A stretch of 16,102 nucleotides of DNA from a virus (taxonomy: Duplodnaviria > Heunggongvirae > Uroviricota > Caudoviricetes), in the IMG/VR virus record IMGVR_UViG_3300027673_000001, positions 146,759 to 162,860 of that record; one strand, written 5' to 3'. The notes beneath the pieces were generated by a model, which saw only the letters and a list, made by a program, of their open reading frames with translations, was not told where the DNA came from and made no database searches. Both the position numbers and the translations under genes were made by a program. Positions 3,430-13,157 of the stretch are shown here, piece by piece. The stretch's first letter is position 1. Every line of letters begins with the position of its first letter.

Positions 3430-3964
3430 GTAGGAGCACTCCTTCATCTTCTATGAATATCACTTCATTCTCTTTGGGCTCGATGATACTCGGTCTCTTT
3501 TCGAGCCTCTTGAACTTTCTACCTCGTATCACAGGCTCGTCGCTGGATACTGCTGGGCCTGTTGAGTTCACAGGAGCATCCTCAAACAAAGCCAGGAAGT
3601 TCTTTATGTCTATGGTTTCCTCGACTAGGGTAACATCACTCTCAATAAGTCTCTGGAACGAATCATCAAGCTCTTCGTCTGTTATGGATTCGTTGTTGAT
3701 GTTTTCTCTAACAAGGAAGTATGCTGCGGCGAAACTTTTTAGTCTGTTGTCTCCCCCTGGGAGTTGCGCTAGAAGCCTCTTCAGGTTAAACACCAGTCGC
3801 ACCAACATATTGTAGGCGTCCTTCTCTTTCTGGGTTTTTAGGTCGGCCAGATTTTTGAGGCGCTTTCCCTGCTCATCTATGATGCCCAACTTGAACGCCT
3901 CTGTTTCCTTGAACGGCGTTACTAGCATATAGAGCACTCTAAAGGCTATAAGGGAATCTATCAT
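3398..3964 (-). CDS. Conserved T4-like hypothetical protein, probably virion-associated
   Basis: PFKETEAFKLGIIDEQGK...LVFNLKRLLAQLPGG...SFAAAYFLVRE motif recalled from T4-like cyanophage-type genomes. The tail has an EDAPVNS motif after an LFE site. Coupled to the upstream gene by ATGA overlap. Confidence 0.7.
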   Translation of the reverse strand: MIDSLIAFRVLYMLVTPFKETEAFKLGIIDEQGKRLKNLADLKTQKEKDAYNMLVRLVFNLKRLLAQLPGGDNRLKSFAAAYFLVRENINNESITDEELDDSFQRLIESDVTLVEETIDIKNFLALFEDAPVNSTGPAVSSDEPVIRGRKFKRLEKRPSIIEPKENEVIFIEDEGVLLHEHNAYTVRY

Positions 3965-4320
3965 AGTTGGTTAAGCTCTTGTAGTATTTTCTGGTCTATC
4001 GCGAAGTCAGAAAGAAAGATGCCAAACTCAGGTATTGTGTCTGGCATCCTGTCTATGAACAACAGAAAGGTTATCAGCTTGCCCCAGTAAATTTTGTCTA
4101 CTTTGTAGAACATCATCCCAAGGGCCGCGTCACCGAAACAGTTGAAGGCTATGATGATATGGTTTAGAAGAAGGTGAACTTTTACATCTTCTCTAGCTAG
4201 ATGCTTCTTGATGTATGTAAACACCCTTAAGTCATCCTCAAATTCGTCTACCGTGGGGCATGACGGAACTGAATAGTTATTCATAGCATAGAGAAGAAAG
4301 TTTTCTTCACTCAAAACCAT
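3961..4320 (-). CDS. Conserved T4-like hypothetical protein (LSEENFLLYAM...LLLNHIII family)
   Basis: ENFLLYAMNNY...EFEDDLRVFTYIKK...HLLLNHIIIAFNCFG is a recurrent T4-like/cyanophage hypothetical family (DUF7207-like, from memory). Confidence 0.7.
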   Translation of the reverse strand: MVLSEENFLLYAMNNYSVPSCPTVDEFEDDLRVFTYIKKHLAREDVKVHLLLNHIIIAFNCFGDAALGMMFYKVDKIYWGKLITFLLFIDRMPDTIPEFGIFLSDFAIDQKILQELNQL

Positions 4321-4335
4321 AACGAAAAGCCCTGA

Positions 4336-4908
4336 TTAAGCGGAGACGGTGAGTACTGCTACGTCAGAGGTAACAGGAGCAGCTCCAGAGCCCGAAACTT
4401 CTACTCTGTACTTGTCGCCGTTGTTTGCAACTGTTCTTGCGGTGAGAGCTAGAGAAGCAGAAGTTGCTCCAGGTACGTCAACCCAAGCACCAGTTTCAGC
4501 AGCTGGCTGATATTGCCACTGGTAAGCGAGAGTACCGGAAGGAGCAATGGTTGCTGTGGTTGCAAAAGTTGCTGCTCCGGCCACTGCAGTCTGGTCGGTA
4601 GGCTGAACAGTGATAGTTACTTCCACGTTTACGTCAGGCACAAACAGATCATCTGCTGCGTCTCCTGATGTTGCCACAGGCACGCTCATCGCAACGATAA
4701 GCTCTGCTTTCCAGCGCTTCTTGCCGGATGAGTCCTTGTGTGTCTTGAGAACATACCAGCCTGGGCCCTTGATTCCCTTCTTCTTGTTTGCTTCCAGAGC
4801 AGCTTCTTCTCTGTCTACGAAAAGAAACTGCGTGCCTGCTGGGTAGTCAGCAGCCTTAAGCCAGTTTGGTCTAGACGGTGTAGCGTCTGTTTTACCCCAT
4901 AGTGCCAT
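4336..4908 (-). CDS. Virion structural protein with C-terminal Ig-like domain
   Basis: N-terminal MALWGKTD...PGW motif of T4-like virion proteins. C-terminal ITVQPTDQT...TF...LAYQWQ...DVPGATSASL...GDKYRVEVS...TSDVAVLTV is a classic Ig I-set pattern. AAGGAG SD. Confidence 0.8.
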   Translation of the reverse strand: MALWGKTDATPSRPNWLKAADYPAGTQFLFVDREEAALEANKKKGIKGPGWYVLKTHKDSSGKKRWKAELIVAMSVPVATSGDAADDLFVPDVNVEVTITVQPTDQTAVAGAATFATTATIAPSGTLAYQWQYQPAAETGAWVDVPGATSASLALTARTVANNGDKYRVEVSGSGAAPVTSDVAVLTVSA

Positions 4909-4913
4909 TCTCT

Positions 4914-5534
4914 TTACTCCTTGATTTGCTTGGTGATGAAGGAAGCGAGAGAATCTACGCTAAGCCCTTCTGCTATTGGTTGAGTTTCAACTGACTCAGT
5001 CTTAGGCGCTGGCTTTTCTTCAGCTTCCTTCTTCTTGATGTTGCTTACTGCTTTCTTGCCTGCCTTGTAGAGCATTGCGCTACCTCTAGGTGCGCTCTTT
5101 ACACCTTCTTCGACAGCCTCTTCATCATCATCATCCTCTTCGTCACTTTCGTTCATGGCGTCAAGAACATCCATGAGATCTTCATGATCCAGGCTTTCGA
5201 GGAAGGACATGACTTCTTCTTCGGTTTCCATGGAGTCGATAATATCGAGGCTTTCCTTTACCTTCTTCTTGTAGGAGCCATACTTGCCAGGTGGACGACC
5301 ACGCCCACGCTTAACAGGCGCGCCGCCGGTTTCACGGTTCGCTGGCTCTTCGCTTTCACCATCTTTGTTGTAACGTCTAGTGACTTTAGTCACGCCATCT
5401 TTCTTTTCGATGTCGTGCCTAGCTCCCCTAGTAGCACCGGTCATGCCCTTTGCGGCGCCGTGCTTTTTGTTGTATTCGGGAGTACCTGGCCATGCTTCTA
5501 GCAGGCTTTCGATGAGTTGATTATAGGATTTCAT
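4914..5534 (-). CDS. Putative internal head protein with AT-hook and acidic segment
   Basis: N-terminus MKSYNQLIE|SLLE|A (CTS-like), AT-hook KRGRGRPPGK (aa 75-84), acidic tract ESDEEDDDDEEAVEE. AAGGAAG SD and late box upstream. Confidence 0.65.
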   Translation of the reverse strand: MKSYNQLIESLLEAWPGTPEYNKKHGAAKGMTGATRGARHDIEKKDGVTKVTRRYNKDGESEEPANRETGGAPVKRGRGRPPGKYGSYKKKVKESLDIIDSMETEEEVMSFLESLDHEDLMDVLDAMNESDEEDDDDEEAVEEGVKSAPRGSAMLYKAGKKAVSNIKKKEAEEKPAPKTESVETQPIAEGLSVDSLASFITKQIKE

Positions 5535-5558
5535 AGTCTTCCTTTGTTGGACTTGTTT

Positions 5559-5565
5559 TATTTAG
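5559..5565 (-). promoter_or_regulatory. T4-type late promoter box CTAAATA
   Basis: Intergenic, 24 nt upstream of ATG 5534. Matches the TAAATA core of the T4 gp55 late consensus TATAAATA. Confidence 0.6.
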
Positions 5566-5578
5566 TTGAAGAGAAATG

Positions 5579-7216
5579 TTACTTGGGTTCCTTGGCTTTG
5601 ACAACATATTTGTCATCGCCTACGGGCTTCTGGACGGTGAGCTCTTCCTTGCCGTCCTTAATCTTAGTACCTGGCTTCAGATGTGTTTCGTTAACCATCC
5701 CTGCGTGTTCTGCTCCGTGCACTTTGTATCCGGACTTCTTGTAGTGAGCCTTCGCTTTTTCTACGGCGGTCTTTTCGTCTGCTGCGGTAACACGAACAAA
5801 CTTTTGCTTGGTCGCCTTACGCATTGACACAGCAGGGTGGTCTGGTTCCGATACCGTTACTGCAACACGATGCTTTTGCTCAGTTACTGTTTCAACTTCC
5901 TCATTGGCATGCTTCTTTATGTCATTGGCAAACTGCTTCTTGGTTGCTTTGATGATACCAGAGTAACGCTTATCACCCTTCTTGAAGTCGCCCTTGGCAT
6001 CAGCAGCGGTCGCATCGGCCGATGCCTTCTTCTTGTATTCGCCTAGCTTCTCGCTGGATAGTTCCTCAATAGATTCGCCTTCTGAGTGTTCAATAGAGTC
6101 ACCCATGTAATGACCCCTACCACGACCATATCCCATTGCTCTAGCCTGTGCGGCTGACTTCTTTTGGTCGGCTGTTAACCCATAATCTGGTCTGCTATTC
6201 AGGCGATTTAGGGCCTTCTTAACACCAGCAGCTCTCTTTTCCTTCTTAGGGTGGTCAGGGTTTTGTTCGTCCTGATGAGCTTTCTTCATGTAGCTTCGAA
6301 CAGTGTCTCTGTAGAGTTCTTCAATCTGTTCTTCTTCATTGATTGCCCTAACCTTGACAGTGCGGATATTATTTTGCTTCTCGAGCTTCTTAGCAAATTC
6401 ACGAGCATCGCGCTCTGCCTTATCGGGGGAGTCGTTTTTACTTTTCATGAACTTCTTTGTGGAAACCTTATAGTCGAGGTCTGACCAAGTCACAACAAAA
6501 GCAGACTCTTCAATCTCTGTTTCTTCTTTAGTAATTGAGTACCTAATCCTGGACAATACACCATGTTGGTCAGGGTACTTACCTGTTTTCTTTTTTACTT
6601 TGTTTGCTGCTCTAGCTTCGCCTTCTTCTCTGCCTAGGACTCTTTGCTTTTCTTTCTTAGATGCAGTCCCAGCAGACCACTTATCGTTTAGGCGTTCTCT
6701 GTCTTTTTCTGCTGCATCAGAATACTTCAGCATCTTATCTACTGACAACTCATCAATCTGTTCAGAGTCTTCAGACACTTTCTTACCAAGGAGTTTGTTC
6801 TTCTCCTTGTTCTTCTTTACGACTTCCTTGACCTTCTTGGCTAGGGCTGGATCTGCTCTAAGCATCCAACCTGGTCTATGGTTGCCTTTAACTTCGTCAA
6901 CAGATGCACTTTCAAGTCTAACGTCGTCGGGCAGTGTGATGGAGTTCTTAACTTTGTCCTTTACTGCTTTCTTCATTGGCTCTTTTTCGTTACCATCTTT
7001 GTCAGCATCGATGAAGTCAGGCTTTTGTGCCTCGTTCATCTTTCTAGCTAGGACAGTTCTTCTTGCTGCGAGTTTAGCCATGGACTTCTTGATTGAAGTC
7101 TTCATAGTTTCGTCTTTGGCTCTGGAATAGACTTTATTGAGGTACTCAATTCTATCCTTGATGTCCTTGAGTTCGTTCTCTTTTTCTACTCTGTCGTTTT
7201 CGTTGATGTCTTCCAT
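5579..7216 (-). CDS. Modular Lys/Glu-rich putative internal head polyprotein
   Basis: 545 aa with three I[DE]EL-x7-Y..K..A repeats, a KPDFIDADKDGNEKEPMKKA motif and many hydrophobic-x-E sites. No catalytic motif seen. Confidence 0.65.
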   Translation of the reverse strand: MEDINENDRVEKENELKDIKDRIEYLNKVYSRAKDETMKTSIKKSMAKLAARRTVLARKMNEAQKPDFIDADKDGNEKEPMKKAVKDKVKNSITLPDDVRLESASVDEVKGNHRPGWMLRADPALAKKVKEVVKKNKEKNKLLGKKVSEDSEQIDELSVDKMLKYSDAAEKDRERLNDKWSAGTASKKEKQRVLGREEGEARAANKVKKKTGKYPDQHGVLSRIRYSITKEETEIEESAFVVTWSDLDYKVSTKKFMKSKNDSPDKAERDAREFAKKLEKQNNIRTVKVRAINEEEQIEELYRDTVRSYMKKAHQDEQNPDHPKKEKRAAGVKKALNRLNSRPDYGLTADQKKSAAQARAMGYGRGRGHYMGDSIEHSEGESIEELSSEKLGEYKKKASADATAADAKGDFKKGDKRYSGIIKATKKQFANDIKKHANEEVETVTEQKHRVAVTVSEPDHPAVSMRKATKQKFVRVTAADEKTAVEKAKAHYKKSGYKVHGAEHAGMVNETHLKPGTKIKDGKEELTVQKPVGDDKYVVKAKEPK

Positions 7217-7219
7217 TTT

Positions 7220-8806
7220 TTAATCCTTAGAGAGTCTATCTTTTTCGAACTGCCTTACTTTAGGCAACATCTTTACTGCGAGTCTAGCAATGACTGGCTT
7301 CATACGTTCCAGCCTCTTTTCTAGCTTTTCCTTTTCGCTAACAGTCAGCTTACTTAGATCCTTTTTAGCTAGCCTCTTCTTTAGAGCTTGAATAGCCAGG
7401 CGACGTGCTCTTTTGCTAGCTACCTTACCGTCGCTTCTTCGACTTAGAGCTATTCTTGCTCCTCGTTCTCTCTTGGCTTTTGTCCTAGCCATCTTGACCT
7501 TTGCTCTCATTCTAGCTATTCTGGAAAGTACTTCGTTGAGTCCTTCAAAATTTTCGACTTCTACTTCCTGATCGTTTTCGTCAAGTATAACAAAGTCGTC
7601 ATCATCGTAGGCTTCGTCGGATATGAAGTCATCAGTAACTTCAAGAACTATGGAGTCAAGTTCCTCATCCTCTATCGACTCATGAGCCTTGTAGTGTATC
7701 TTTCTTATTCTAGCGTACCTTTTTGACTTATCAGAAGGTAGGGTACTTAGGTGCATTAAGTGATGAGTTTCGTCTTCCTTAGGTAGATCAAGCTCAGGAA
7801 CTTCGCCCTCTGTTAGACTCTTCGCTAGGTTTTCATCAAAGGATATTTCCATCTTCCTGGCAAGATCCAACATCCTTCTTAGGATATCCTTTGCTTCCTT
7901 GTTTAGGACTTTTCTCTTTGACAACCTGAGTGCTGAATTGACTATCATTACAGGATCTGTCTTTGTCTCCGCTTCCTCAAACCCCAGAGCCATGGCAATG
8001 ATTCTAGCTGCTCTTATCTTTTCTTGTTGCTTTACCACGACTGCCTCGTTTACTTTTTCTGTTGGGATGATGTCCTTGAGCCAGACCTTTTCCTGGTTGT
8101 CTAGAATGACATAGTTTGATCCCCTGAACGTAACAGTCCTCTCGAGGATTCCGTGCGTTACTATGTCGCCAATACAGAACAACTCGTTCTTAACGTACTC
8201 TTCTCTCGCTTCGGTTCCTTCTATGATGTTCATTGCGGCCCTTAGGTCATTGAACATCATCTTTGCTGATGCGTTTGATATTGTCTTAGGAACACCAGAA
8301 AGGAACGCAGTGAAGTTATTATCCTCTGCTGCCTTTCTCATTTTGGATGCGGACATCCCAGCGGTGCCGTCGGCGTCTGGGTCTCTTTCACCCGCAGACA
8401 CTACGAGTATCGAATCGAAGTTGTAGTCCTTGCCGTTGTACTTGTCCAGGAGTGTCTTATACTCCAGAACTCTATCCGAACCTGCTACGACTATGAGTTT
8501 GGAGTATTTGGTGTTTAGGGCCCTGGCGGCTTCCATGATAGTTCTAATGCTATCTGTAGCGGGCTGAATGTTGACGCCCTTGAAAGCCATCCTTGCGAAC
8601 TTAACCTTTTGGTTAACATTCAAGGGATTCTTTTTGGGGTCTTGTGTCTTGGTCAGATATATGACATGATCCGCAGAGTACTTCTTTGACAGCACTTCGA
8701 CGGCCTTTACCAGAACCCCATGCCCTATCGTAGGTGGGTTCATCCTGCCCCAGGCTAGGACAATAGTCTTGCTCTTGGCTTCTAGTATAGGTTTCATATA
8801 TCCCAT
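7220..8806 (-). CDS. HIGH-superfamily nucleotidyltransferase ('cytidyltransferase'-like) with additional C-terminal modules
   Basis: IVLAWGRMNPPTIGH (HIGH-like), VVAGSDRV, VSAGERDPDA and GMSASKMR (KMSKS-like) motifs in aa ~14-190, followed by a highly basic C-terminal module. Confidence 0.85.
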   Translation of the reverse strand: MGYMKPILEAKSKTIVLAWGRMNPPTIGHGVLVKAVEVLSKKYSADHVIYLTKTQDPKKNPLNVNQKVKFARMAFKGVNIQPATDSIRTIMEAARALNTKYSKLIVVAGSDRVLEYKTLLDKYNGKDYNFDSILVVSAGERDPDADGTAGMSASKMRKAAEDNNFTAFLSGVPKTISNASAKMMFNDLRAAMNIIEGTEAREEYVKNELFCIGDIVTHGILERTVTFRGSNYVILDNQEKVWLKDIIPTEKVNEAVVVKQQEKIRAARIIAMALGFEEAETKTDPVMIVNSALRLSKRKVLNKEAKDILRRMLDLARKMEISFDENLAKSLTEGEVPELDLPKEDETHHLMHLSTLPSDKSKRYARIRKIHYKAHESIEDEELDSIVLEVTDDFISDEAYDDDDFVILDENDQEVEVENFEGLNEVLSRIARMRAKVKMARTKAKRERGARIALSRRSDGKVASKRARRLAIQALKKRLAKKDLSKLTVSEKEKLEKRLERMKPVIARLAVKMLPKVRQFEKDRLSKD

Positions 8807-8820
8807 TGATGTAGTGTTTA

Positions 8821-9555
8821 TTATTTATGGTTTCCCAGGATTGACTTGTGAAGCTTGATATTCAACTTGCTCTGTATCATTTCCCATGCTTCTTTGTTCT
8901 TACCTGCAGAGACTAGAGCCTTAAGTTTTACCTTCTCTTCCGTTGTCGCTATAGAGAAGAATTTAACCATTTCCATGGCGCCTACGTTCCCCTCATATGA
9001 TGCTTCCTTGAGAGTGTCAGCCCAGTTCTTAATAATGACGTTTGATTTTATACCAGACAAATACACCTTTGCGCTATTCCTAGTGAAGTTCAGGACTTCG
9101 ACTATCTCCTCGGCTTCTCGTTTTGGGGCACCATACCACAAGCTAATGTGTGGGGAAAAGTCAGGGTATGTGTGATTGCAACCCATTCCCTTGAGGTACT
9201 CGTGTATGTTTCTCAGGGTCTCAGATTCTATCTTTGCCACAATGGTAGCCTTTGCTTCGTCTCTTTCGCCATCCTTCGGTAAGTCATCGAAGCAAGCATA
9301 ACCAGAAACTATACCATGGCAGGAACCAGTGAAGCTCATTTTAACCATTTCGCCCAATAGAAAAGGGTCAAGGTTACTATCCGGAGAATACATCAAGGTG
9401 ATGTGTTTCTTTTCTGCAGGCACTTCTACGCCTTCTGCAGGCCTCAGGTTTGGTGTTATCGTCAGCTCATATATCTCAGGGTTGTCAACGCCTATGGAGA
9501 GGTAGTTGCCCTTGTTCTGAATCTGGCCTGTGTAGTATTCCTTGAAGCTTACCAT
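8821..9555 (-). CDS. acb1: Acb1/gp57B-like 2H phosphodiesterase (anti-CBASS nuclease family) with ~60-aa C-terminal extension
   Basis: H51-I-T53 (KKHITLMYS) and H136-I-S138 (HTYPDFSPHISLWY). N-terminal SFKEY...NYLS and C-terminal IIKNWADTLK align with T4 gp57B as recalled (EFKDF...LYVA; IHSTICYS; HDFDDYTPHITLSY; LKLDWADDLK). Confidence 0.85.
   Translation of the reverse strand: MVSFKEYYTGQIQNKGNYLSIGVDNPEIYELTITPNLRPAEGVEVPAEKKHITLMYSPDSNLDPFLLGEMVKMSFTGSCHGIVSGYACFDDLPKDGERDEAKATIVAKIESETLRNIHEYLKGMGCNHTYPDFSPHISLWYGAPKREAEEIVEVLNFTRNSAKVYLSGIKSNVIIKNWADTLKEASYEGNVGAMEMVKFFSIATTEEKVKLKALVSAGKNKEAWEMIQSKLNIKLHKSILGNHK
8822..8828 (-). promoter_or_regulatory. T4-type late promoter box ATAAATA
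   Basis: Overlaps the last codons and stop of the Acb1-like gene (CAT AAA TAA), 15 nt upstream of ATG 8806. Confidence 0.6.
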
Positions 9556-10193
9556 GCCTTGCAGCTCCAGTATCTTGCCTTCGTCTTTGGACCTGGGTTA
9601 TCGCAGTTGTGTCTAGCCCTAAAGGACTTCCTACGCTCAGGAATGTGCTTCTTGATGCTCATGTTCTTGTCGCCAAACTCTACTTTGACAACATTGCCTT
9701 TTTCGTTCTTGACGTAGACTTTGGACTTCTTAACGTCGCCCTTCATGGGTTTGTTTAGGGGTTTGCCTTCCTCTTCGTAGATGAAAATAATCTCACCCTC
9801 AGTCCCATCTTCGAAGATGAACCCGTCACCAAGTTGCATTTCTTCTGGTATGCAGTTGGGCACTTCCTTGCCATTCTTTTTCTTCATGCCGAGTTGTTTG
9901 TATCCCTTCCAGCAAGGATCTTTATTCTCTTCAGACTCGTTGAAGAAATGTTTATCATGTGCTTCAAGTTTTTTATTCCCGAACTTAGATCTCAACAACA
10001 TACCGATATACTCTTGCTTTGACTTTGCTGAGTGTACTCTAAATTGTTGATTAGCCATTCTTTTCAGAGAATCTGTAGGTTGCTTTTTCAGCATGGATAT
10101 ATGGTCCGCTACTTCTTTCACGTCGTCGGGAGCAGCATCATATTTCTTTTTGTAAGATTCTTCCAATGATTGGTATTCTTTGAATGATGTCAT
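9549..10193 (-). CDS. Modular basic protein: CTS-like leader, CWKGY...PNC module, C-terminal FRARHNC...YWSC (DUF6321-like) module
   Basis: True start probably ATG 10193 (MTSFKEYQSLEE; ATGA overlap with the upstream stop, GGAG SD), not 10220. Both motifs are recurrent in phage hypothetical proteins. Confidence 0.7.
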   Translation of the reverse strand: MTSFKEYQSLEESYKKKYDAAPDDVKEVADHISMLKKQPTDSLKRMANQQFRVHSAKSKQEYIGMLLRSKFGNKKLEAHDKHFFNESEENKDPCWKGYKQLGMKKKNGKEVPNCIPEEMQLGDGFIFEDGTEGEIIFIYEEEGKPLNKPMKGDVKKSKVYVKNEKGNVVKVEFGDKNMSIKKHIPERRKSFRARHNCDNPGPKTKARYWSCKAW

Positions 10194-10387
10194 TTGCTCT
10201 TCTCCGCTCTTTCTATCCATGCCTTGGCGTCACGCCTAAGGTCAAACGTATCGTATATGTATCCGTCCTTGGTATCAACTACGTTGTAGGCAGACTTTAT
10301 TCTTCCTCTTGTGTCAGACACTTCGGTTTTCTTTATGGCGTACTTTGACTTGGATTGCTCTGTTATGTAATCTTGCAAGCTAATCAT
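10190..10387 (-). CDS. Small basic putative internal protein (65 aa)
   Basis: ATG 10387 overlaps the upstream stop (ATGA). Starts MISLQDYITE|Q (CTS-like) and fills the gap between two coupled genes exactly. Confidence 0.65.
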   Translation of the reverse strand: MISLQDYITEQSKSKYAIKKTEVSDTRGRIKSAYNVVDTKDGYIYDTFDLRRDAKAWIERAEKSK

Positions 10388-11625
10388 CTCTGCCAACCTT
10401 TCATGAACATAGGGTCGAAGTTTGCCAATGAAAACTCATAGCGATCAACCAGCTTGATGGCTCCATGGTCTGATATAGCAACAAACCCCTCAGGTGATGT
10501 TACTCTAAATCCGCTCTTAGTTTTGAGGAATGTACCTATGTTGTTTGCCTGGTTCATCTTCTTGATGAGATATAGCTTTGCCTCTGCAATCATCTTGGAG
10601 AGTTCAAACAAGGCGATAATTTCTCTCTTTGGGTGCACAAGGAAGAAGTTTAGTATCTTAGTGCGACGAGCATCTGTTCTGTCTTTACCTGCCTGTGTTT
10701 TCATTCCAGATGCTTCCTTAGTAAAGCGATCATCTATGAACTTGTAAAGACCATCTACGTGAGCTTCTACGTTTGTAATCTTCTCTCCTGCTCTTACCTT
10801 GCTGTTGTCATAGGTGTGAACAAGCATAAGGAGGTCTGGGTCCTTATGTATGGCGTTGAGTGTCTGAGAGGGCATCTTTTGAAACGCTCTGCCTATGTTA
10901 GCTAGCATTGCGTCAAACGTTTTTCTCTCTTCAGGTGTGAATGTTGCTGCGCCTGTCACATCCTTGAACGTAGCATCTTCCATCCATGAGGAAGATGACT
11001 TACGAAACTTTGACGTTATGTTCTTACCAAAGCTAGCACTCAGATTTTGTATTGAGTCGCCTTCGTAGGTTGTGTGCCAAACGATTCCTATGTTGCTACC
11101 TAGTATCCTCTTGCCTAGCGCAGAGTTTAGGGGGACGGCGTAGAGTATTGTGTTGGGATGAAAGGTAATGTACTTGGTGCCATCTATAGTCTGGCTTTTC
11201 AAGTCATTACGGGTGAACATGATGTCTCCCTGGTAAACACCACTCTTTATCCCCAGCTTCTTACACTCCGTGAAAGCCACTTTTAGCTTGTCTGCTAGGT
11301 CGCCTGAGGTATCGGAGTCTATGTCCTCATGACTGTAGTATAGCTTGGGGTTCTTGTTAAACAAGCCTTTCTTGGCTATGAAGAACTTTCCGTTTTCGGG
11401 GTTGATACCAGCAAAGACAGCTGGCGCCCCGTCCCATTTCACTGTGGTTACGGTCTTCTTGTTGTCGTTGCCTTGGCTTAGCATATCCCTAACGTCTCTC
11501 AGGAACATGATTGCCTTGCGTGTGCCTTCAACACCCAGGTCAAAGACTAGCTGTTCTAGGTGCTGCATATGGGTATTGGCAGCAGCCTCATTCATATAGG
11601 ACTTAAGAGATCTTACATTAGGCAT
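10384..11625 (-). CDS. ATP-dependent ligase-fold (RNA ligase-like) nucleotidyltransferase, DUF6267-like
   Basis: Motif I TVK63WDG, motif III-like GVYQGDIMF, motif IV PE379GFV, motif V-like AIK391LVDR. N-terminal NTHMQHLE is typical of this T4-like family. Confidence 0.7.
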   Translation of the reverse strand: MPNVRSLKSYMNEAAANTHMQHLEQLVFDLGVEGTRKAIMFLRDVRDMLSQGNDNKKTVTTVKWDGAPAVFAGINPENGKFFIAKKGLFNKNPKLYYSHEDIDSDTSGDLADKLKVAFTECKKLGIKSGVYQGDIMFTRNDLKSQTIDGTKYITFHPNTILYAVPLNSALGKRILGSNIGIVWHTTYEGDSIQNLSASFGKNITSKFRKSSSSWMEDATFKDVTGAATFTPEERKTFDAMLANIGRAFQKMPSQTLNAIHKDPDLLMLVHTYDNSKVRAGEKITNVEAHVDGLYKFIDDRFTKEASGMKTQAGKDRTDARRTKILNFFLVHPKREIIALFELSKMIAEAKLYLIKKMNQANNIGTFLKTKSGFRVTSPEGFVAISDHGAIKLVDRYEFSLANFDPMFMKGWQR

Positions 11626-12425
11626 TTGAACTCTGCTTTGTTTTCTATAATGTTGACTGTCTTACCATCTATGGGTGCTATGTTGTAGGGGGAAGAGTTC
11701 TTAGGCAGAGCAAATTCGATGGTAAACGTAAACTGGTATCCCTGAGCACCAATCCTTCCTTTGGATTTTTCCTCGGCGTCAGCCTTTGTGACGCCCTTGG
11801 ATTGGCAACGAACACGAGCCGTGATCCTACACACATCCTCAAACCTGGGGATCAAAGGTTGTCCCAGCTTAGCCATTCTTTGATTCAACCCAAGAGGGTC
11901 TTGACTTCCCAACAGATAAAACCCATGAGTACCTACGTTGATGTAATAGGTGCTTTTCAGGTTATAATACCTAGTCATGGAGTTTGAGGGCAGCTCCATC
12001 TTTATGTCAGGACACGTCTTGAGGTCCATGTCATAGCGATCTCTTAAGGGAATGCCTAGCATTTGTCTTTCCCATTCAGGCGTTCTATCAGAGACGTTAT
12101 AAACAGGCATGGTCCACTTGTCGTTGATCTTTTGTAGAACACCAGAGAACTTTGCCAAATCTGCCAGAAACTGCTTTTCTGTTTCGTCGTGCTCAATCTC
12201 TCCAAACCTCCAATGTGGCTTGGATCTAGCATAGGCCTTGATAACAAGGGAGCCGCCAGCAGTTGGTGATATCTTTAGTTCACACCCAGCTTGCTTACCT
12301 CTTACGGTTAGCATCAGGTCAGGCCTGGTGTGTGAAGCGCCAGCAGTTATTCCGTCAGACAGGTCAAATTTCTTGAGGAACTTTGTGGCGTTTTCCTCAT
12401 ACACAAACCCTTGTTGAGCCGCCAT
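11613..12425 (-). CDS. PD-(D/E)XK restriction-endonuclease-like protein (paralog B)
   Basis: GFVYE10...AGASHTRP35D36L...GCE49LK51. AAGGAG SD and TAA-ATG junction with the upstream paralog. Confidence 0.7.
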   Translation of the reverse strand: MAAQQGFVYEENATKFLKKFDLSDGITAGASHTRPDLMLTVRGKQAGCELKISPTAGGSLVIKAYARSKPHWRFGEIEHDETEKQFLADLAKFSGVLQKINDKWTMPVYNVSDRTPEWERQMLGIPLRDRYDMDLKTCPDIKMELPSNSMTRYYNLKSTYYINVGTHGFYLLGSQDPLGLNQRMAKLGQPLIPRFEDVCRITARVRCQSKGVTKADAEEKSKGRIGAQGYQFTFTIEFALPKNSSPYNIAPIDGKTVNIIENKAEFKCLM

Positions 12426-13115
12426 TTATGGTTTCTCCTTTGGATCAACATCCAAGTCATGATGTGACTTATCCGCATCCTTGAGACCCATAACGATTAG
12501 AGCACCGTATTTCTTCTTGCCGTTTTTGTCGGTGCCTCTGTACTTCATTCTGGCTCTTAGTTGAGTTTTTCCATGAAGTTCCGGTGAACCCAACTTGCCC
12601 TCGTCATGGCCGGTGTGGTAGAAACCATGCCCTCCACCAATTTGGATATAGTTGGTCTTTCTGTCCTTGCCGTAATGAGCCTTGATTGGATCAGCATCTG
12701 GGTGCATATGGTAAACGTTACCCTTCTGCAGATCCTTATCATAGTCTCCGGTGGGCTTATCCCACTGCTTGTTTACTTTCTCAAGGAAACCCGTGGCATG
12801 AATAGCTTCTGCTGTGTGGGGATACTTCTTTGCTGCCTTGGGGGAAATATGCCATCTTTCACCGTCATGATGAAGTTCGATTTGCCCGAACATGGCTTTG
12901 TGATCGGCCTTGATTTCTAGGTTGTGTTCCTTACCATTGTGGTGGAACTTCGCATCAGGGGCGTCAGCAGAAGACCCGGCCACTTTGGCGTCCTTGTCTG
13001 CTTTCCCGTGTTTCTTCAGGCGATCGTTGATAGTGACTTCATAGTCTCTCCCTCCTTGCCCTACGGCCTCGGAAAGATACTTTGCGTATGAATAGTCTTT
13101 GAAATTTTGAAACAT
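12426..13115 (-). CDS. PD-(D/E)XK restriction-endonuclease-like protein (paralog A), CTS-like leader
   Basis: MFQNFKDYSYAKYLSE|A leader, then GRDYE26...AGSSADAP53D54A...NLE67IK69. Confidence 0.7.
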   Translation of the reverse strand: MFQNFKDYSYAKYLSEAVGQGGRDYEVTINDRLKKHGKADKDAKVAGSSADAPDAKFHHNGKEHNLEIKADHKAMFGQIELHHDGERWHISPKAAKKYPHTAEAIHATGFLEKVNKQWDKPTGDYDKDLQKGNVYHMHPDADPIKAHYGKDRKTNYIQIGGGHGFYHTGHDEGKLGSPELHGKTQLRARMKYRGTDKNGKKKYGALIVMGLKDADKSHHDLDVDPKEKP

Positions 13116-13116
13116 A

Positions 13117-13153
13117 AAAACCCCATAAATGTATTGACTATTTATGGGGTTTT
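13117..13153 (-). terminator. Perfect 14-bp hairpin after the helicase gene, containing a late-promoter box (ATAAATA, 13145-13139) and the RBS of the next gene
   Basis: AAAACCCCATAAAT (13117-13130), 9-nt loop, ATTTATGGGGTTTT (13140-13153). Immediately after the helicase stop (13158) and 1 nt before ATG 13115. Confidence 0.8.
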
Positions 13154-13157
13154 GTCT

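What the first reader, a model, noticed from the sequence alone, without database searches (positions are those of the whole stretch)
8821..9555. Acb1-type anti-CBASS phosphodiesterase fused to a cleavable C-terminal module and embedded among putative head proteins
Seen: the Acb1 homology ends at WADTLK183, where T4 gp57B itself ends (WADDLK). It is followed by a protease-type site LKE184|A and a 60-aa helical module (ASYEGNVGAMEMVKFF...EAWEMIQSKL). The N-terminus MVSFKEY is CTS-like, as is T4 57B's recalled MMEFKDF. Known: Acb1 hydrolyses cyclic di/trinucleotide CBASS signals through two HxT/S motifs. Inference: this copy may be packaged, trimmed back to the canonical Acb1 length and delivered at injection. 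The residue aligning with the recalled base-contacting Glu141 of T4-type Acb1 appears to be Asn172, and the second motif is HxS, so substrate range may differ.
Basis: partly seen in the sequence, partly recalled or inferred. Interest (0 to 1): 0.75.

Follow-up and report, generated by a model that had tools for sequence, protein, structure and literature searches.

The report
Acb1 nuclease fused to cleavable module
An uncultured T4-like phage from wastewater encodes a true relative of the anti-CBASS nuclease Acb1, joined through a head-protease-type cutting site to a small, widespread and undescribed helical module, which suggests (but does not prove) that the enzyme is loaded into the capsid, trimmed and injected with the DNA.

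Summary
Window 8821-9555 (minus strand) encodes a 244-aa protein. Residues 1-183 are an Acb1-family 2H phosphodiesterase: Pfam Acb1 scores above its cut-off, the match to T4 Acb1 is collinear and ends at WADTLK/WADDLK, and the nearest solved folds are phage Acb1-type enzymes, not LigT.

Residues 185-244 are a separate basic three-helix module with no Pfam, PHROG, PDB or GenBank-phage match. IMG/VR holds 407 copies, either stand-alone or fused to unrelated enzymes. In 118 distinct copies the module is preceded by Glu (117) with L/I/V/M three residues before the cut (92%), which is the T4 prohead-protease motif. The genome encodes that protease.

Most members of this Acb1 subfamily start with a T4 capsid-targeting-like leader, MxxFKxYLxE. 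In 12 of 18 relatives the gene lies beside the major capsid gene. Some members are fused to ART-PolyVal.

This copy lacks the N-terminal cut site. It also lies between the helicase and primase genes, not among head genes. Packaging and cleavage are therefore inferred, at about 50%. A role in RNA-end healing is a real rival.

This scan has noted capsid-targeting leaders on Acb1-like genes in other genomes before. The C-terminal module is the new element here.

The parts
8821..9555 (-). Whole ORF: 244-aa Acb1-module fusion protein (P0001)
   Evidence: Its start overlaps the stop of the upstream gene by 7 nt. Identical on contigs from two independent runs.
9508..9555 (-). N-terminal leader, residues 1-16. 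It begins MVSFKEY and resembles T4 IPI (MKTFKEF) and T4 Acb1 (MMEFKDF), but has no L/I-x-E site.
   Evidence: The subfamily consensus is MxxFKxYLxE.
9004..9555 (-). Acb1-family 2H phosphodiesterase domain, residues 1-184 (20.7 kDa, pI 5.3)
9397..9405 (-). First catalytic motif, H51-I-T53 (T4 H44/T46)
   Evidence: H is conserved in 64/65 and T in 65/65 subfamily members.
9142..9150 (-). Second catalytic motif, H136-I-S138 (T4 H113/T115)
   Evidence: The subfamily has T in 40 and S in 25 members at the third position.
9040..9042 (-). Asn172, aligned with the adenine-contacting Glu141 of T4 Acb1
   Evidence: ungapped BLASTP alignment. The subfamily has E in 30/65 and N in 8/65. PMC9117128 describes the role of E141.
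9007..9024 (-). C-terminal lid, W178-ADTLK183 (T4 W147-ADDLK152)
   Evidence: Lid function is described in PMC9117128 and in preprint 10.1101/2025.08.21.671373.
9001..9012 (-). Predicted prohead-protease site, L182-K183-E184 | A185
   Evidence: 118 module copies have P1 Glu in 117, P3 L/I/V/M in 92% and P1' Ala in 108. The T4 motif and the Alt precedent are in PMC5694885.
8824..9003 (-). Mobile three-helix module, residues 185-244 (6.7 kDa, pI 9.6)
8822..8829 (-). CATAAATA late-promoter-like motif, 23 nt before the next gene (cytidylyltransferase-like). It overlaps the last codons and the stop of this ORF.
13116..13157 (-). Spacer between the helicase gene and the first cassette gene. It holds a terminator-like hairpin (-17.2 kcal/mol plus a U run) whose 5' arm carries CATAAATA (13139-13146). 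This is the likely start of the operon that includes the Acb1 gene.
4914..13115 (-). Surrounding cassette of tightly packed genes, several with CTS-like starts. It includes a DUF6267 ligase-like gene (10384-11625) and a cytidylyltransferase-like gene (7220-8806).
   Evidence: It is syntenic with L085.

Best explanation
The gene encodes an active Acb1-family 2H phosphodiesterase, which most likely hydrolyses cyclic oligonucleotide immune signals. It is made late in infection as a precursor. The precursor carries the N-terminal leader that T4-like phages use to load cargo into the prohead core. After assembly, the phage's gp21-type prohead protease cuts at L182-K183-E184|A185. This releases a 20.7-kDa enzyme that ends exactly where T4 Acb1 ends, together with a free, basic 6.7-kDa three-helix module. 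Both then travel with the DNA into the next host.

Shown: family and fold membership, the domain boundary, the independence and wide spread of the module, the conserved protease-type motif in front of it, and the presence of the protease gene. Inferred: late expression, packaging, cleavage, injection and substrate.
For: Family and fold. The catalytic tetrad and three of four ligand-stacking residues are conserved (Y18, Y130, W178).

The boundary and the separate tail.

The junction motif before 118 non-redundant module copies has P1 Glu in 117/118, P3 L/I/V/M in 92%, a variable P2 and P1' Ala in 108. It is the same in 64 N-terminal and 54 internal copies. When the module is N-terminal, this site is the end of a T4-like leader, for example MKTYKQFIQE|A in P0067.

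The protease family PF03420 is present in this genome (E 1e-41) and in 4 of 5 other module-bearing viral records.

Subfamily leader: the consensus is MxxFKxYLxE, and 49/76 members have [LIVM]xE within 16 residues. The same leader occurs as an internal linker in ART-PolyVal-Acb1 fusions. Four of five relatives with other C-terminal extensions have an L/V-x-E site just after the lid.

The gene lies next to the major capsid or gp3-like genes in 12 of 18 relatives. Five of 16 have NATAAATA within 80 nt upstream.

CATAAATA precedes the cassette and known head genes in this genome: 16 copies of NATAAATA on the coding strand against 1 on the other.

Precedent: T4 Alt, a packaged enzyme, loses 63 C-terminal residues at LTE-619 through gp21 (PMC5694885).

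The module's partners are unrelated enzymes: GH19, zincin, P-loop kinase, HAD, amidoligase and nucleotidyltransferase. A shared location is a more plausible common factor than a shared substrate.
Against: There is no protein-level evidence of any kind.

This copy lacks the N-terminal L/I-x-E site; its first such site is IYE30, inside the fold.

Here the gene lies between replication genes, not head genes.

The CATAAATA before the operon sits inside a terminator-like hairpin and could be incidental.

T4 Acb1 activity appears only about 15 min into infection and is needed late (PMC9117128). Late expression therefore does not require packaging.

The conserved [LIV]xE-A could be a structural part of the module rather than a cleavage site.

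The leader regex used for the enrichment test was written after seeing the sequences.
Confidence: 0.5

Rival explanations
1. This is a cytoplasmic, late-expressed Acb1 with a permanent accessory domain. The protein is never packaged or cut. The three-helix module is an adaptor or nucleic-acid-binding domain that works attached to the enzyme. The [LIV]xE-A residues are simply its conserved N-terminal cap.
For: T4 Acb1 acts from about 15 min of infection without known packaging. Thirteen of 75 phage 2H PDEs are reported as multidomain proteins. This copy lacks the N-terminal cut site. The gene lies outside the head module. The module is basic, with median pI 9.65, which fits nucleic-acid binding.
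Against: The module joins directly to the C-terminal lid, which is needed for T4 Acb1 activity. The hydrophobic P3 preference is kept across 54 internal contexts with unrelated upstream sequence, while P2, P4 and P5 vary. The module's partners share no substrate. The subfamily-wide CTS-like leader and its position beside the capsid gene would go unexplained.
Confidence: 0.25
2. This is an RNA-end-healing enzyme. The 2H domain opens 2',3'-cyclic phosphate ends left by host anticodon nucleases or other RNases. It would work with the ligase-like DUF6267 protein three genes upstream as a heal-and-seal kit, whether or not it is packaged.
For: In 62 of 80 module-bearing loci the module gene lies one or two genes downstream of a DUF6267 homologue. 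In that slot the module's partner is a HAD DxDxT protein (PHROG 415 'polynucleotide kinase', E 2.6e-8) or a P-loop kinase (PHROG 505, E 3.9e-11), resembling the two halves of T4 Pnkp. DUF6267 has a KxDG motif. PHROG 755, the family matched by this protein, is labelled 'RNA ligase'. Acb1 catalysis passes through a cyclic-phosphate step.
Against: Sequence and fold are closest to enzymes shown to degrade cyclic oligonucleotides. The base-stacking Tyr, Tyr and Trp and the lid that clamp a small cyclic ligand are conserved. Most subfamily members are not near DUF6267 at all; they lie next to the capsid gene. None of the 80 module loci contains an Acb1 domain, so the pairing with the cassette is the exception.
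Confidence: 0.18
3. The fusion is an artefact or a decaying gene, arising from a lost stop codon or a mis-assembly that joined two neighbouring genes.
For: It is the only protein among the 150 best hits that carries both parts. The syntenic relative L085 has a stand-alone 183-aa Acb1 followed by a separate small gene.
Against: An identical sequence with no gaps lies on long contigs from two runs of two studies. The reading frame is intact. The junction forms a clean L-K-E|A site. All catalytic residues and all invariant module residues are kept.
Confidence: 0.03

Closest known systems
Phage T4 Acb1 (gp57B) and phage FBB1 Acb1 (PDB 7T26/7T27; Hobbs et al. 2022, PMC9117128)
   Same: The match to T4 Acb1 is collinear from the first residue to the C-terminal WADxLK lid (E 4e-10). 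Both share the 2H fold and the Hx[TS] pair, and the Tyr12, Phe107 and Trp147 equivalents are conserved. Foldseek gives E 1e-7 and TM 0.73 to 7t26. T4 Acb1 also starts with an IPI-like MMEFKDF and lies next to ipI.
   Different: This domain is about 30 residues longer. The adenine-reading Glu141 is Asn here. It carries a 60-aa C-terminal module after a protease-type site. It belongs to a subfamily that mostly has a full CTS-like leader. No activity data exist.
Burkholderia phage BCSR5 phosphodiesterase '2H PDE-9' (PDB 9Q2Y/9Q2G; Doherty et al. 2025 preprint)
   Same: This is the best structural match (E 2e-8, TM 0.73-0.75). It is in the same structural group as Acb1 and degrades CBASS messengers.
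   Different: PDE-9 uses an N-terminal lid. This protein keeps the Acb1-type C-terminal Trp lid and also has a conserved N-terminal helix. Sequence identity is only 16%.
T4 capsid-targeting sequence (CTS) cargo: IPI, IPII, IPIII and Alt, processed by the prohead protease gp21
   Same: The leader is similar to that of IPI (MKTFKEF). A gp21-family protease is encoded in the genome. The cut motif is L/I-x-E. Alt is a packaged enzyme that loses 63 C-terminal residues at LTE-619 (PMC5694885), close to the 60 residues predicted here.
   Different: This copy has no N-terminal cut site. The C-terminal piece is a conserved, mobile, folded domain with no significant similarity to the Alt propeptide. Presence in virions has not been tested.
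Polyvalent proteins of phages and conjugative elements (Iyer et al. 2017, PMC5512222)
   Same: Relatives of this Acb1 domain are fused to ART-PolyVal and HicA. The module's partners (zincin, lysozyme-like, kinase, amidoligase) are typical polyvalent-protein domains. That paper already predicted that 2H domains counter nucleotide signalling and are delivered with the DNA.
   Different: This is a small two-part protein of a T4-like phage. Processing would be by the head protease at L/I-x-E linkers, not by an embedded metallopeptidase. The module itself is not among the Pfam or PHROG families.

Membership tests
Acb1 (Pfam PF23474; anti-CBASS 2H phosphodiesterase) | Sequence match above the curated family threshold | tested here: met
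   41.9 bits against a cut-off of 27, E 1.1e-10. BLASTP to T4 Acb1 gives E 4e-10 over the full length.
Acb1 (Pfam PF23474; anti-CBASS 2H phosphodiesterase) | 2H fold with two Hx[TS] motifs forming the catalytic tetrad | tested here: met
   H51-I-T53 and H136-I-S138. The AF2 model has pLDDT 87.5. The top PDB folds are phage Acb1-type PDEs, and LigT is about 10^4-fold weaker in E-value.
Acb1 (Pfam PF23474; anti-CBASS 2H phosphodiesterase) | C-terminal lid with a stacking Trp (T4 W147), plus aromatic base-stacking residues (Y12, W74, F107) | tested here: met
   W178, Y18 and Y130 align with W147, Y12 and F107. The W74 equivalent could not be placed with confidence.
Acb1 (Pfam PF23474; anti-CBASS 2H phosphodiesterase) | Glu141 contact to adenine N6, the basis of the adenosine requirement in T4 Acb1 | tested here: not met
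   Asn172 aligns with Glu141 in an ungapped stretch. The subfamily has E in 30/65 and N in 8/65. This is a specificity determinant, not a family-defining residue.
Acb1 (Pfam PF23474; anti-CBASS 2H phosphodiesterase) | Hydrolysis of 3'3'-cGAMP, cUA or cAAA, and protection against CBASS | not testable with these tools
   This needs enzyme assays and phage-defence assays.
T4-type packaged internal or ejected proteins (CTS cargo) | The phage encodes a gp21-family (Peptidase_S77) prohead protease | tested here: met
   PF03420 gives E 1.2e-41 at G000 28763-29203.
T4-type packaged internal or ejected proteins (CTS cargo) | N-terminal capsid-targeting leader ending in an L/I-x-E cut site within about 6-20 residues | tested here: inconclusive
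   The leader core, MVSFKEY, is present and shared with cassette neighbours (4 of 9 against 1 of 211 other ORFs; the pattern was written post hoc). No [LIVM]xE occurs before residue 28. Of the relatives, 49 of 76 do have one.
T4-type packaged internal or ejected proteins (CTS cargo) | Late transcription | tested here: inconclusive
   CATAAATA precedes the first cassette gene and the gene after Acb1, as it does scaffold, portal and other structural genes. The first copy lies in a terminator-like hairpin. No usable expression data exist; the RNA-labelled run is held only as contigs.
T4-type packaged internal or ejected proteins (CTS cargo) | Physical presence in virions and a processed terminus | not testable with these tools
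   This needs virion proteomics.
Polyvalent proteins (Iyer et al. 2017) | Several unrelated conflict-related domains in one polypeptide | tested here: not met
   This protein has one enzyme domain and one small module. Relatives P0026, P0035 and P0059 (ART-PolyVal plus Acb1) and P0011 (Acb1 plus HicA) do qualify.

The most novel reading that the evidence does not exclude
The 60-residue module is a previously undescribed, widespread virion-cargo domain of phages that have a T4-type head protease. It may be a DNA-associated internal protein or a core-tethering propeptide, released at a conserved L/I-x-E|A site. In this phage it would hold an anti-CBASS nuclease by its catalytic lid until head maturation. 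The virion would then deliver a pre-made, protease-activated signal-degrading enzyme at the moment of injection. That would be a mode of counter-defence not yet shown for any cyclic-nucleotide nuclease.
Probability: 0.3. Interest if true: 0.8.

Novelty: new variant of a known kind. Interest (0 to 1): 0.62.

Why it matters
Acb1 is so far known only as an enzyme made during infection. A packaged, protease-trimmed form would mean that some phages arrive already armed against cyclic-oligonucleotide immunity (CBASS, type III CRISPR and related systems).

The data also define a small domain with hundreds of copies in uncultured phages. No database names it, yet it sits behind a head-protease motif on lysozyme-like, protease, kinase, phosphatase and nucleotidyltransferase partners. 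It could therefore serve as a marker for finding injected phage effectors in metagenomes, and as a natural cleavable tag for loading cargo into T4-like capsids.

The Glu-to-Asn change at the one base-specific contact of Acb1 gives a simple, testable handle on substrate range.

Tried and rejected
- tblastn of the whole protein and of the module against 50,697 GenBank phage records found nothing.
- The word-indexed protein search found only the query itself.
- Pfam and PHROG scans of the module found no family.
- Foldseek of the module against PDB and BFVD gave no match at E<=0.001. The best BFVD row (E 3.7e-3) is an uncultured-phage cytidyltransferase-like protein 45% identical over the aligned module, so it very probably contains the module.
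- Atlas structure neighbours included two 'scaffold/capsid assembly' clusters at TM about 0.6. For a 50-residue helical bundle this carries little weight and was not used as evidence.
- Two attempts to build one composite alignment (Acb1 relatives plus module copies) for folding mis-aligned GNY with GNxG and were dropped. The two parts were folded from separate alignments instead.
- The module HMM against T4 Alt and its 63-residue C-terminal propeptide gave no significant match. A faint likeness (E|SVIYDGDHLME against E|ASYEGNVGAME) is probably chance.
- The exact T4 late promoter TATAAATA is absent from the window. Only the CATAAATA variant occurs.
- The first locus search with the 65-sequence Acb1 alignment failed for lack of a conserved stretch. 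It was repeated with 14 close sequences.
- The search for virion proteomics of cyanophage homologues of the cassette genes gave nothing usable.
- Run X3 holds only short, diverged pieces and says nothing about this gene.
- No complex prediction was run, because no specific binding partner is claimed.

Full report
**What is there.**
The window is the last 16.1 kb of a 162,860-bp viral record with 127-bp terminal repeats and 46% GC. Nearly all genes lie on the minus strand. The genome is T4-like. It has a Peptidase_S77 (gp21-type) prohead protease, UvsX, a DnaB/gp41-type helicase and both ribonucleotide reductase chains. Its cassette genes are most similar to those of cyanophages, pelagiphages and Methylophilales phages. 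The DNA occurs in wastewater metagenomes.

The finding's coordinates, 8821-9555, are an intact minus-strand ORF of 244 aa.

**The enzyme part.**
- Pfam Acb1 (PF23474) matches at 41.9 bits against a cut-off of 27.
- The solved FBB1 Acb1 matches by sequence.
- T4 gp57B/Acb1, translated here from NC_000866, aligns from residue 1 to its last residue (E 4e-10) with residues 1-183 of this protein. T4 begins MMEFKDF and ends LDWADDLK. This protein begins MVSFKEY, and the match ends at NWADTLK183.
- An AlphaFold model built on 65 relatives has mean pLDDT 87.5.
- Its best PDB matches are the phage BCSR5 phosphodiesterase PDE-9 (E 2e-8) and FBB1 Acb1 (E 1e-7, TM 0.73). Usb1, poxvirus cGAMP PDE and LigT follow three to five orders of magnitude behind. 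The refutation criterion 'closer to LigT' is therefore not met.
- The residues that Hobbs et al. (PMC9117128) name for T4 Acb1 map as follows: Y12 to Y18, H44/T46 to H51/T53, F107 to Y130, H113/T115 to H136/S138 and W147 to W178. The adenine-reading E141 maps to N172 in an ungapped stretch.
- In the subfamily that position is Glu in 30 of 65 sequences and Asn in 8. The second motif is HxS in 25 of 65. The Asn is therefore a real but not unique departure, and HxS is ordinary.

**The tail is a separate, mobile module.**
In the exhaustive search of 1.84 billion representatives, Acb1 relatives are mostly 170-190 aa and cover query residues 1-~183. Residues ~180-243 hit a different set of proteins. 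Among the 150 best hits, 66 carry the module and 85 the Acb1 domain. Only the query carries both.

The module occurs in several forms:
- alone, in proteins of 64-117 aa;
- at the N-terminus, middle or C-terminus of proteins with GH19 lysozyme-like, zincin-like, Zeta/AAA_33 kinase, HAD-type (DxDxT), amidoligase and cytidylyltransferase-like domains.

IMG/VR holds 407 confirmed copies. The 50,697 GenBank phage records hold none. Pfam and PHROGs have no family for it. This genome has exactly one copy.

Folded from its own alignment, it is a three-helix bundle (helices at 193-202, 205-216 and 220-231, pLDDT about 90) preceded by an extended, highly conserved E-A-x-Y-x-G-N-[IL]-G segment. It has no convincing structural relative. 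It is basic, with median pI 9.65 across 52 copies, whereas the Acb1 part is acidic at pI 5.3.

**The junction.**
In 118 non-redundant module copies:
- the residue before the conserved Ala is Glu in 117;
- the residue two before that is L/I/V/M in 92% (L or I in 71%);
- the residue between them varies;
- flanking upstream positions show no hydrophobic preference (13-21%).

The pattern is the same in 64 N-terminal and 54 internal copies. This is the (L/I)-x-E cut motif of T4 gp21 (PMC5694885).

Where the module is N-terminal, the motif is the end of a leader that is nearly the T4 capsid-targeting sequence. Examples are MKTYKQFIQE|A in P0067 and MKxSEFITE|L in others.

In this protein Leu182 and Lys183 belong to the Acb1 lid, and Glu184 to the module. 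The fusion therefore itself creates L-K-E|A.

Four of five other module-bearing viral records encode the S77 protease. The fifth is estimated to be only 47% complete.

There is a direct precedent. T4 Alt, a packaged enzyme, loses 63 C-terminal residues by gp21 cleavage at LTE-619 (PMC5694885). The Alt propeptide shows no significant similarity to the module.

**Evidence from the Acb1 subfamily.**
- The 65-sequence alignment has the N-terminal consensus MxxFKxYLxE followed by GNY.
- 49 of 76 short members have [LIVM]xE within 16 residues.
- In three relatives the Acb1 domain follows an ART-PolyVal ADP-ribosyltransferase, and the leader persists as an internal linker (…FLIE|S/A…GNY). One relative carries a HicA domain.
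- Four of five relatives with other C-terminal extensions have VME|S, LDE|A, LTE|M or LAE|M just after the lid Trp.
- In 12 of 18 IMG/VR loci the gene lies directly downstream of the protease-scaffold-major-capsid genes, or just upstream of the gp3-like gene that follows them.
- 5 of 16 loci have NATAAATA within 80 nt upstream, in one case straight after a terminator.
- In T4 itself, 57B lies next to ipI, whose product starts MKTFKEF.

Here the gene is not among head genes. It lies in a roughly 10-kb cassette between the helicase and the primase. Only one neighbour (4336-4908) matches a 'head protein' PHROG.

The cassette genes are tightly packed or overlapping, and several begin with CTS-like peptides such as MKSYNQLIE|S, MTSFKEYQSLEE|S, MISLQDYITE|Q and MFQNFKDY…LSE|A. 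Such starts occur in 4 of 9 cassette genes against 1 of 211 others. The search pattern was chosen after seeing them, so the p-value is optimistic.

An 8.4-kb contig, L085, is syntenic. It has a stand-alone 183-aa Acb1, then a small basic leader-bearing gene, then the cytidylyltransferase-like gene and so on, and one of its genes starts MKTFKEF.

CATAAATA occurs 9 times on the coding strand and once on the other. It lies 23-54 nt before the scaffold, portal and other structural genes, before the first cassette gene and before the gene after Acb1. The copy before the cassette is in the arm of a strong terminator-like hairpin, so its promoter role is uncertain.

**Most likely mechanism.**
This is a late-made Acb1 precursor that enters the prohead through its leader. 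It is then cut at E184 into an enzyme of canonical Acb1 length and a free basic module, and both are ejected with the DNA.

The lid is required for T4 Acb1 activity (preprint 10.1101/2025.08.21.671373), and the module hangs on it. Cleavage may therefore also activate the enzyme; that step is speculation.

I put the whole chain at about 0.5. Family membership alone is about 0.9.

**Rivals.**
1. *An unprocessed cytoplasmic two-domain enzyme.* T4 Acb1 activity appears at about 15 min and matches the late onset of CBASS, so late expression needs no packaging.
2. *An RNA-end-healing role.* In 62 of 80 module loci the module gene lies one or two genes after a DUF6267 homologue. There its partner is a HAD or P-loop protein matching 'polynucleotide kinase' PHROGs. 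This resembles the T4 Pnkp halves placed next to a KxDG ligase-like protein, and here a 2H enzyme fills that slot. Against this, none of those 80 loci has an Acb1 domain, and most subfamily members lie beside the capsid gene.
3. *An artefactual fusion.* Identical contigs in two studies argue against it.

**Novelty.**
Acb1, the T4 CTS system and multidomain phage 2H enzymes are all known. The 2017 polyvalent-protein paper predicted delivered 2H domains. Notes from this scan already describe CTS-like leaders on Acb1-like genes in other genomes, and on this cassette.

Three things are new here:
- the C-terminal module as a defined, widespread, unnamed domain behind a conserved protease motif;
- its unique fusion to the Acb1 lid;
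- the family-level link of Acb1 genes to the capsid gene cluster.

Noticed in passing
window 10384-11625 (-), with 80 related loci L005-L084: The DUF6267 protein (E 2e-105) has a KxDG motif (TVKWDG). In 62 of 80 loci it is followed, after one small ORF, by a module-bearing HAD (DxDxT), P-loop kinase or cytidylyltransferase-like protein. The arrangement looks like a conserved, possibly packaged, RNA heal-and-seal kit.
   Followed up: partly
window 7220-8806 (-) and 9549-10220 (-); protein P0077: A 727-aa metagenomic protein fuses three parts that are spread over three genes here: a cytidylyltransferase-like domain, the module, and the Cys-rich C-terminal domain of the gene upstream of Acb1 (…RARHxCDNPGPK…YWSC..W; DUF5754/PHROG 7595). 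This suggests polyprotein-like shuffling at L/I-x-E linkers.
   Followed up: partly
window 13116-13157 (-): The 42-nt spacer after the helicase gene folds into a 16-bp hairpin (-17.2 kcal/mol) followed by a U run. Its 5' arm contains CATAAATA. A terminator and a late-type promoter appear to be superimposed.
   Followed up: partly
L003 (T4 NC_000866) 3592-4411: In T4, the Acb1 gene 57B lies directly beside ipI. Their products start alike (MMEFKDF and MKTFKEF). Whether T4 Acb1 is itself a minor capsid cargo seems not to have been asked.
   Followed up: partly
L087-L099 (IMG/VR contigs): In 12 of 18 related phages the Acb1-subfamily gene is inserted between the major capsid gene and the gp3/uvsY/uvsW block. 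In this genome that slot (G000 about 26087-26195) is empty and the gene lies 130 kb away.
   Followed up: partly
window 5579-7216, 11613-12425, 12426-13115 (-): Three cassette proteins match different parts of one 698-residue PHROG (26930). They look like paralogues or split pieces of a larger protein of unknown function. The 545-aa and 206-aa proteins are extremely Lys/Glu-rich.
   Followed up: no
L119 (T4 alt) C-terminal 63 residues: The T4 Alt C-terminal propeptide starts E|SVIYDGDHLME. This faintly resembles the module start E|ASYEGNVGAME, and the two are almost the same length (63 and 60 aa). The HMM score is not significant.
   Followed up: yes
window 4336-4908 (-): This 190-aa protein matches 'head protein' PHROG 613 (E 1.5e-41). 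Its repeats also occur in two large structural proteins of the same genome (G000 62475-64916 and 38758-40644). It may be a decoration or Ig-like domain protein inside the cassette.
   Followed up: no
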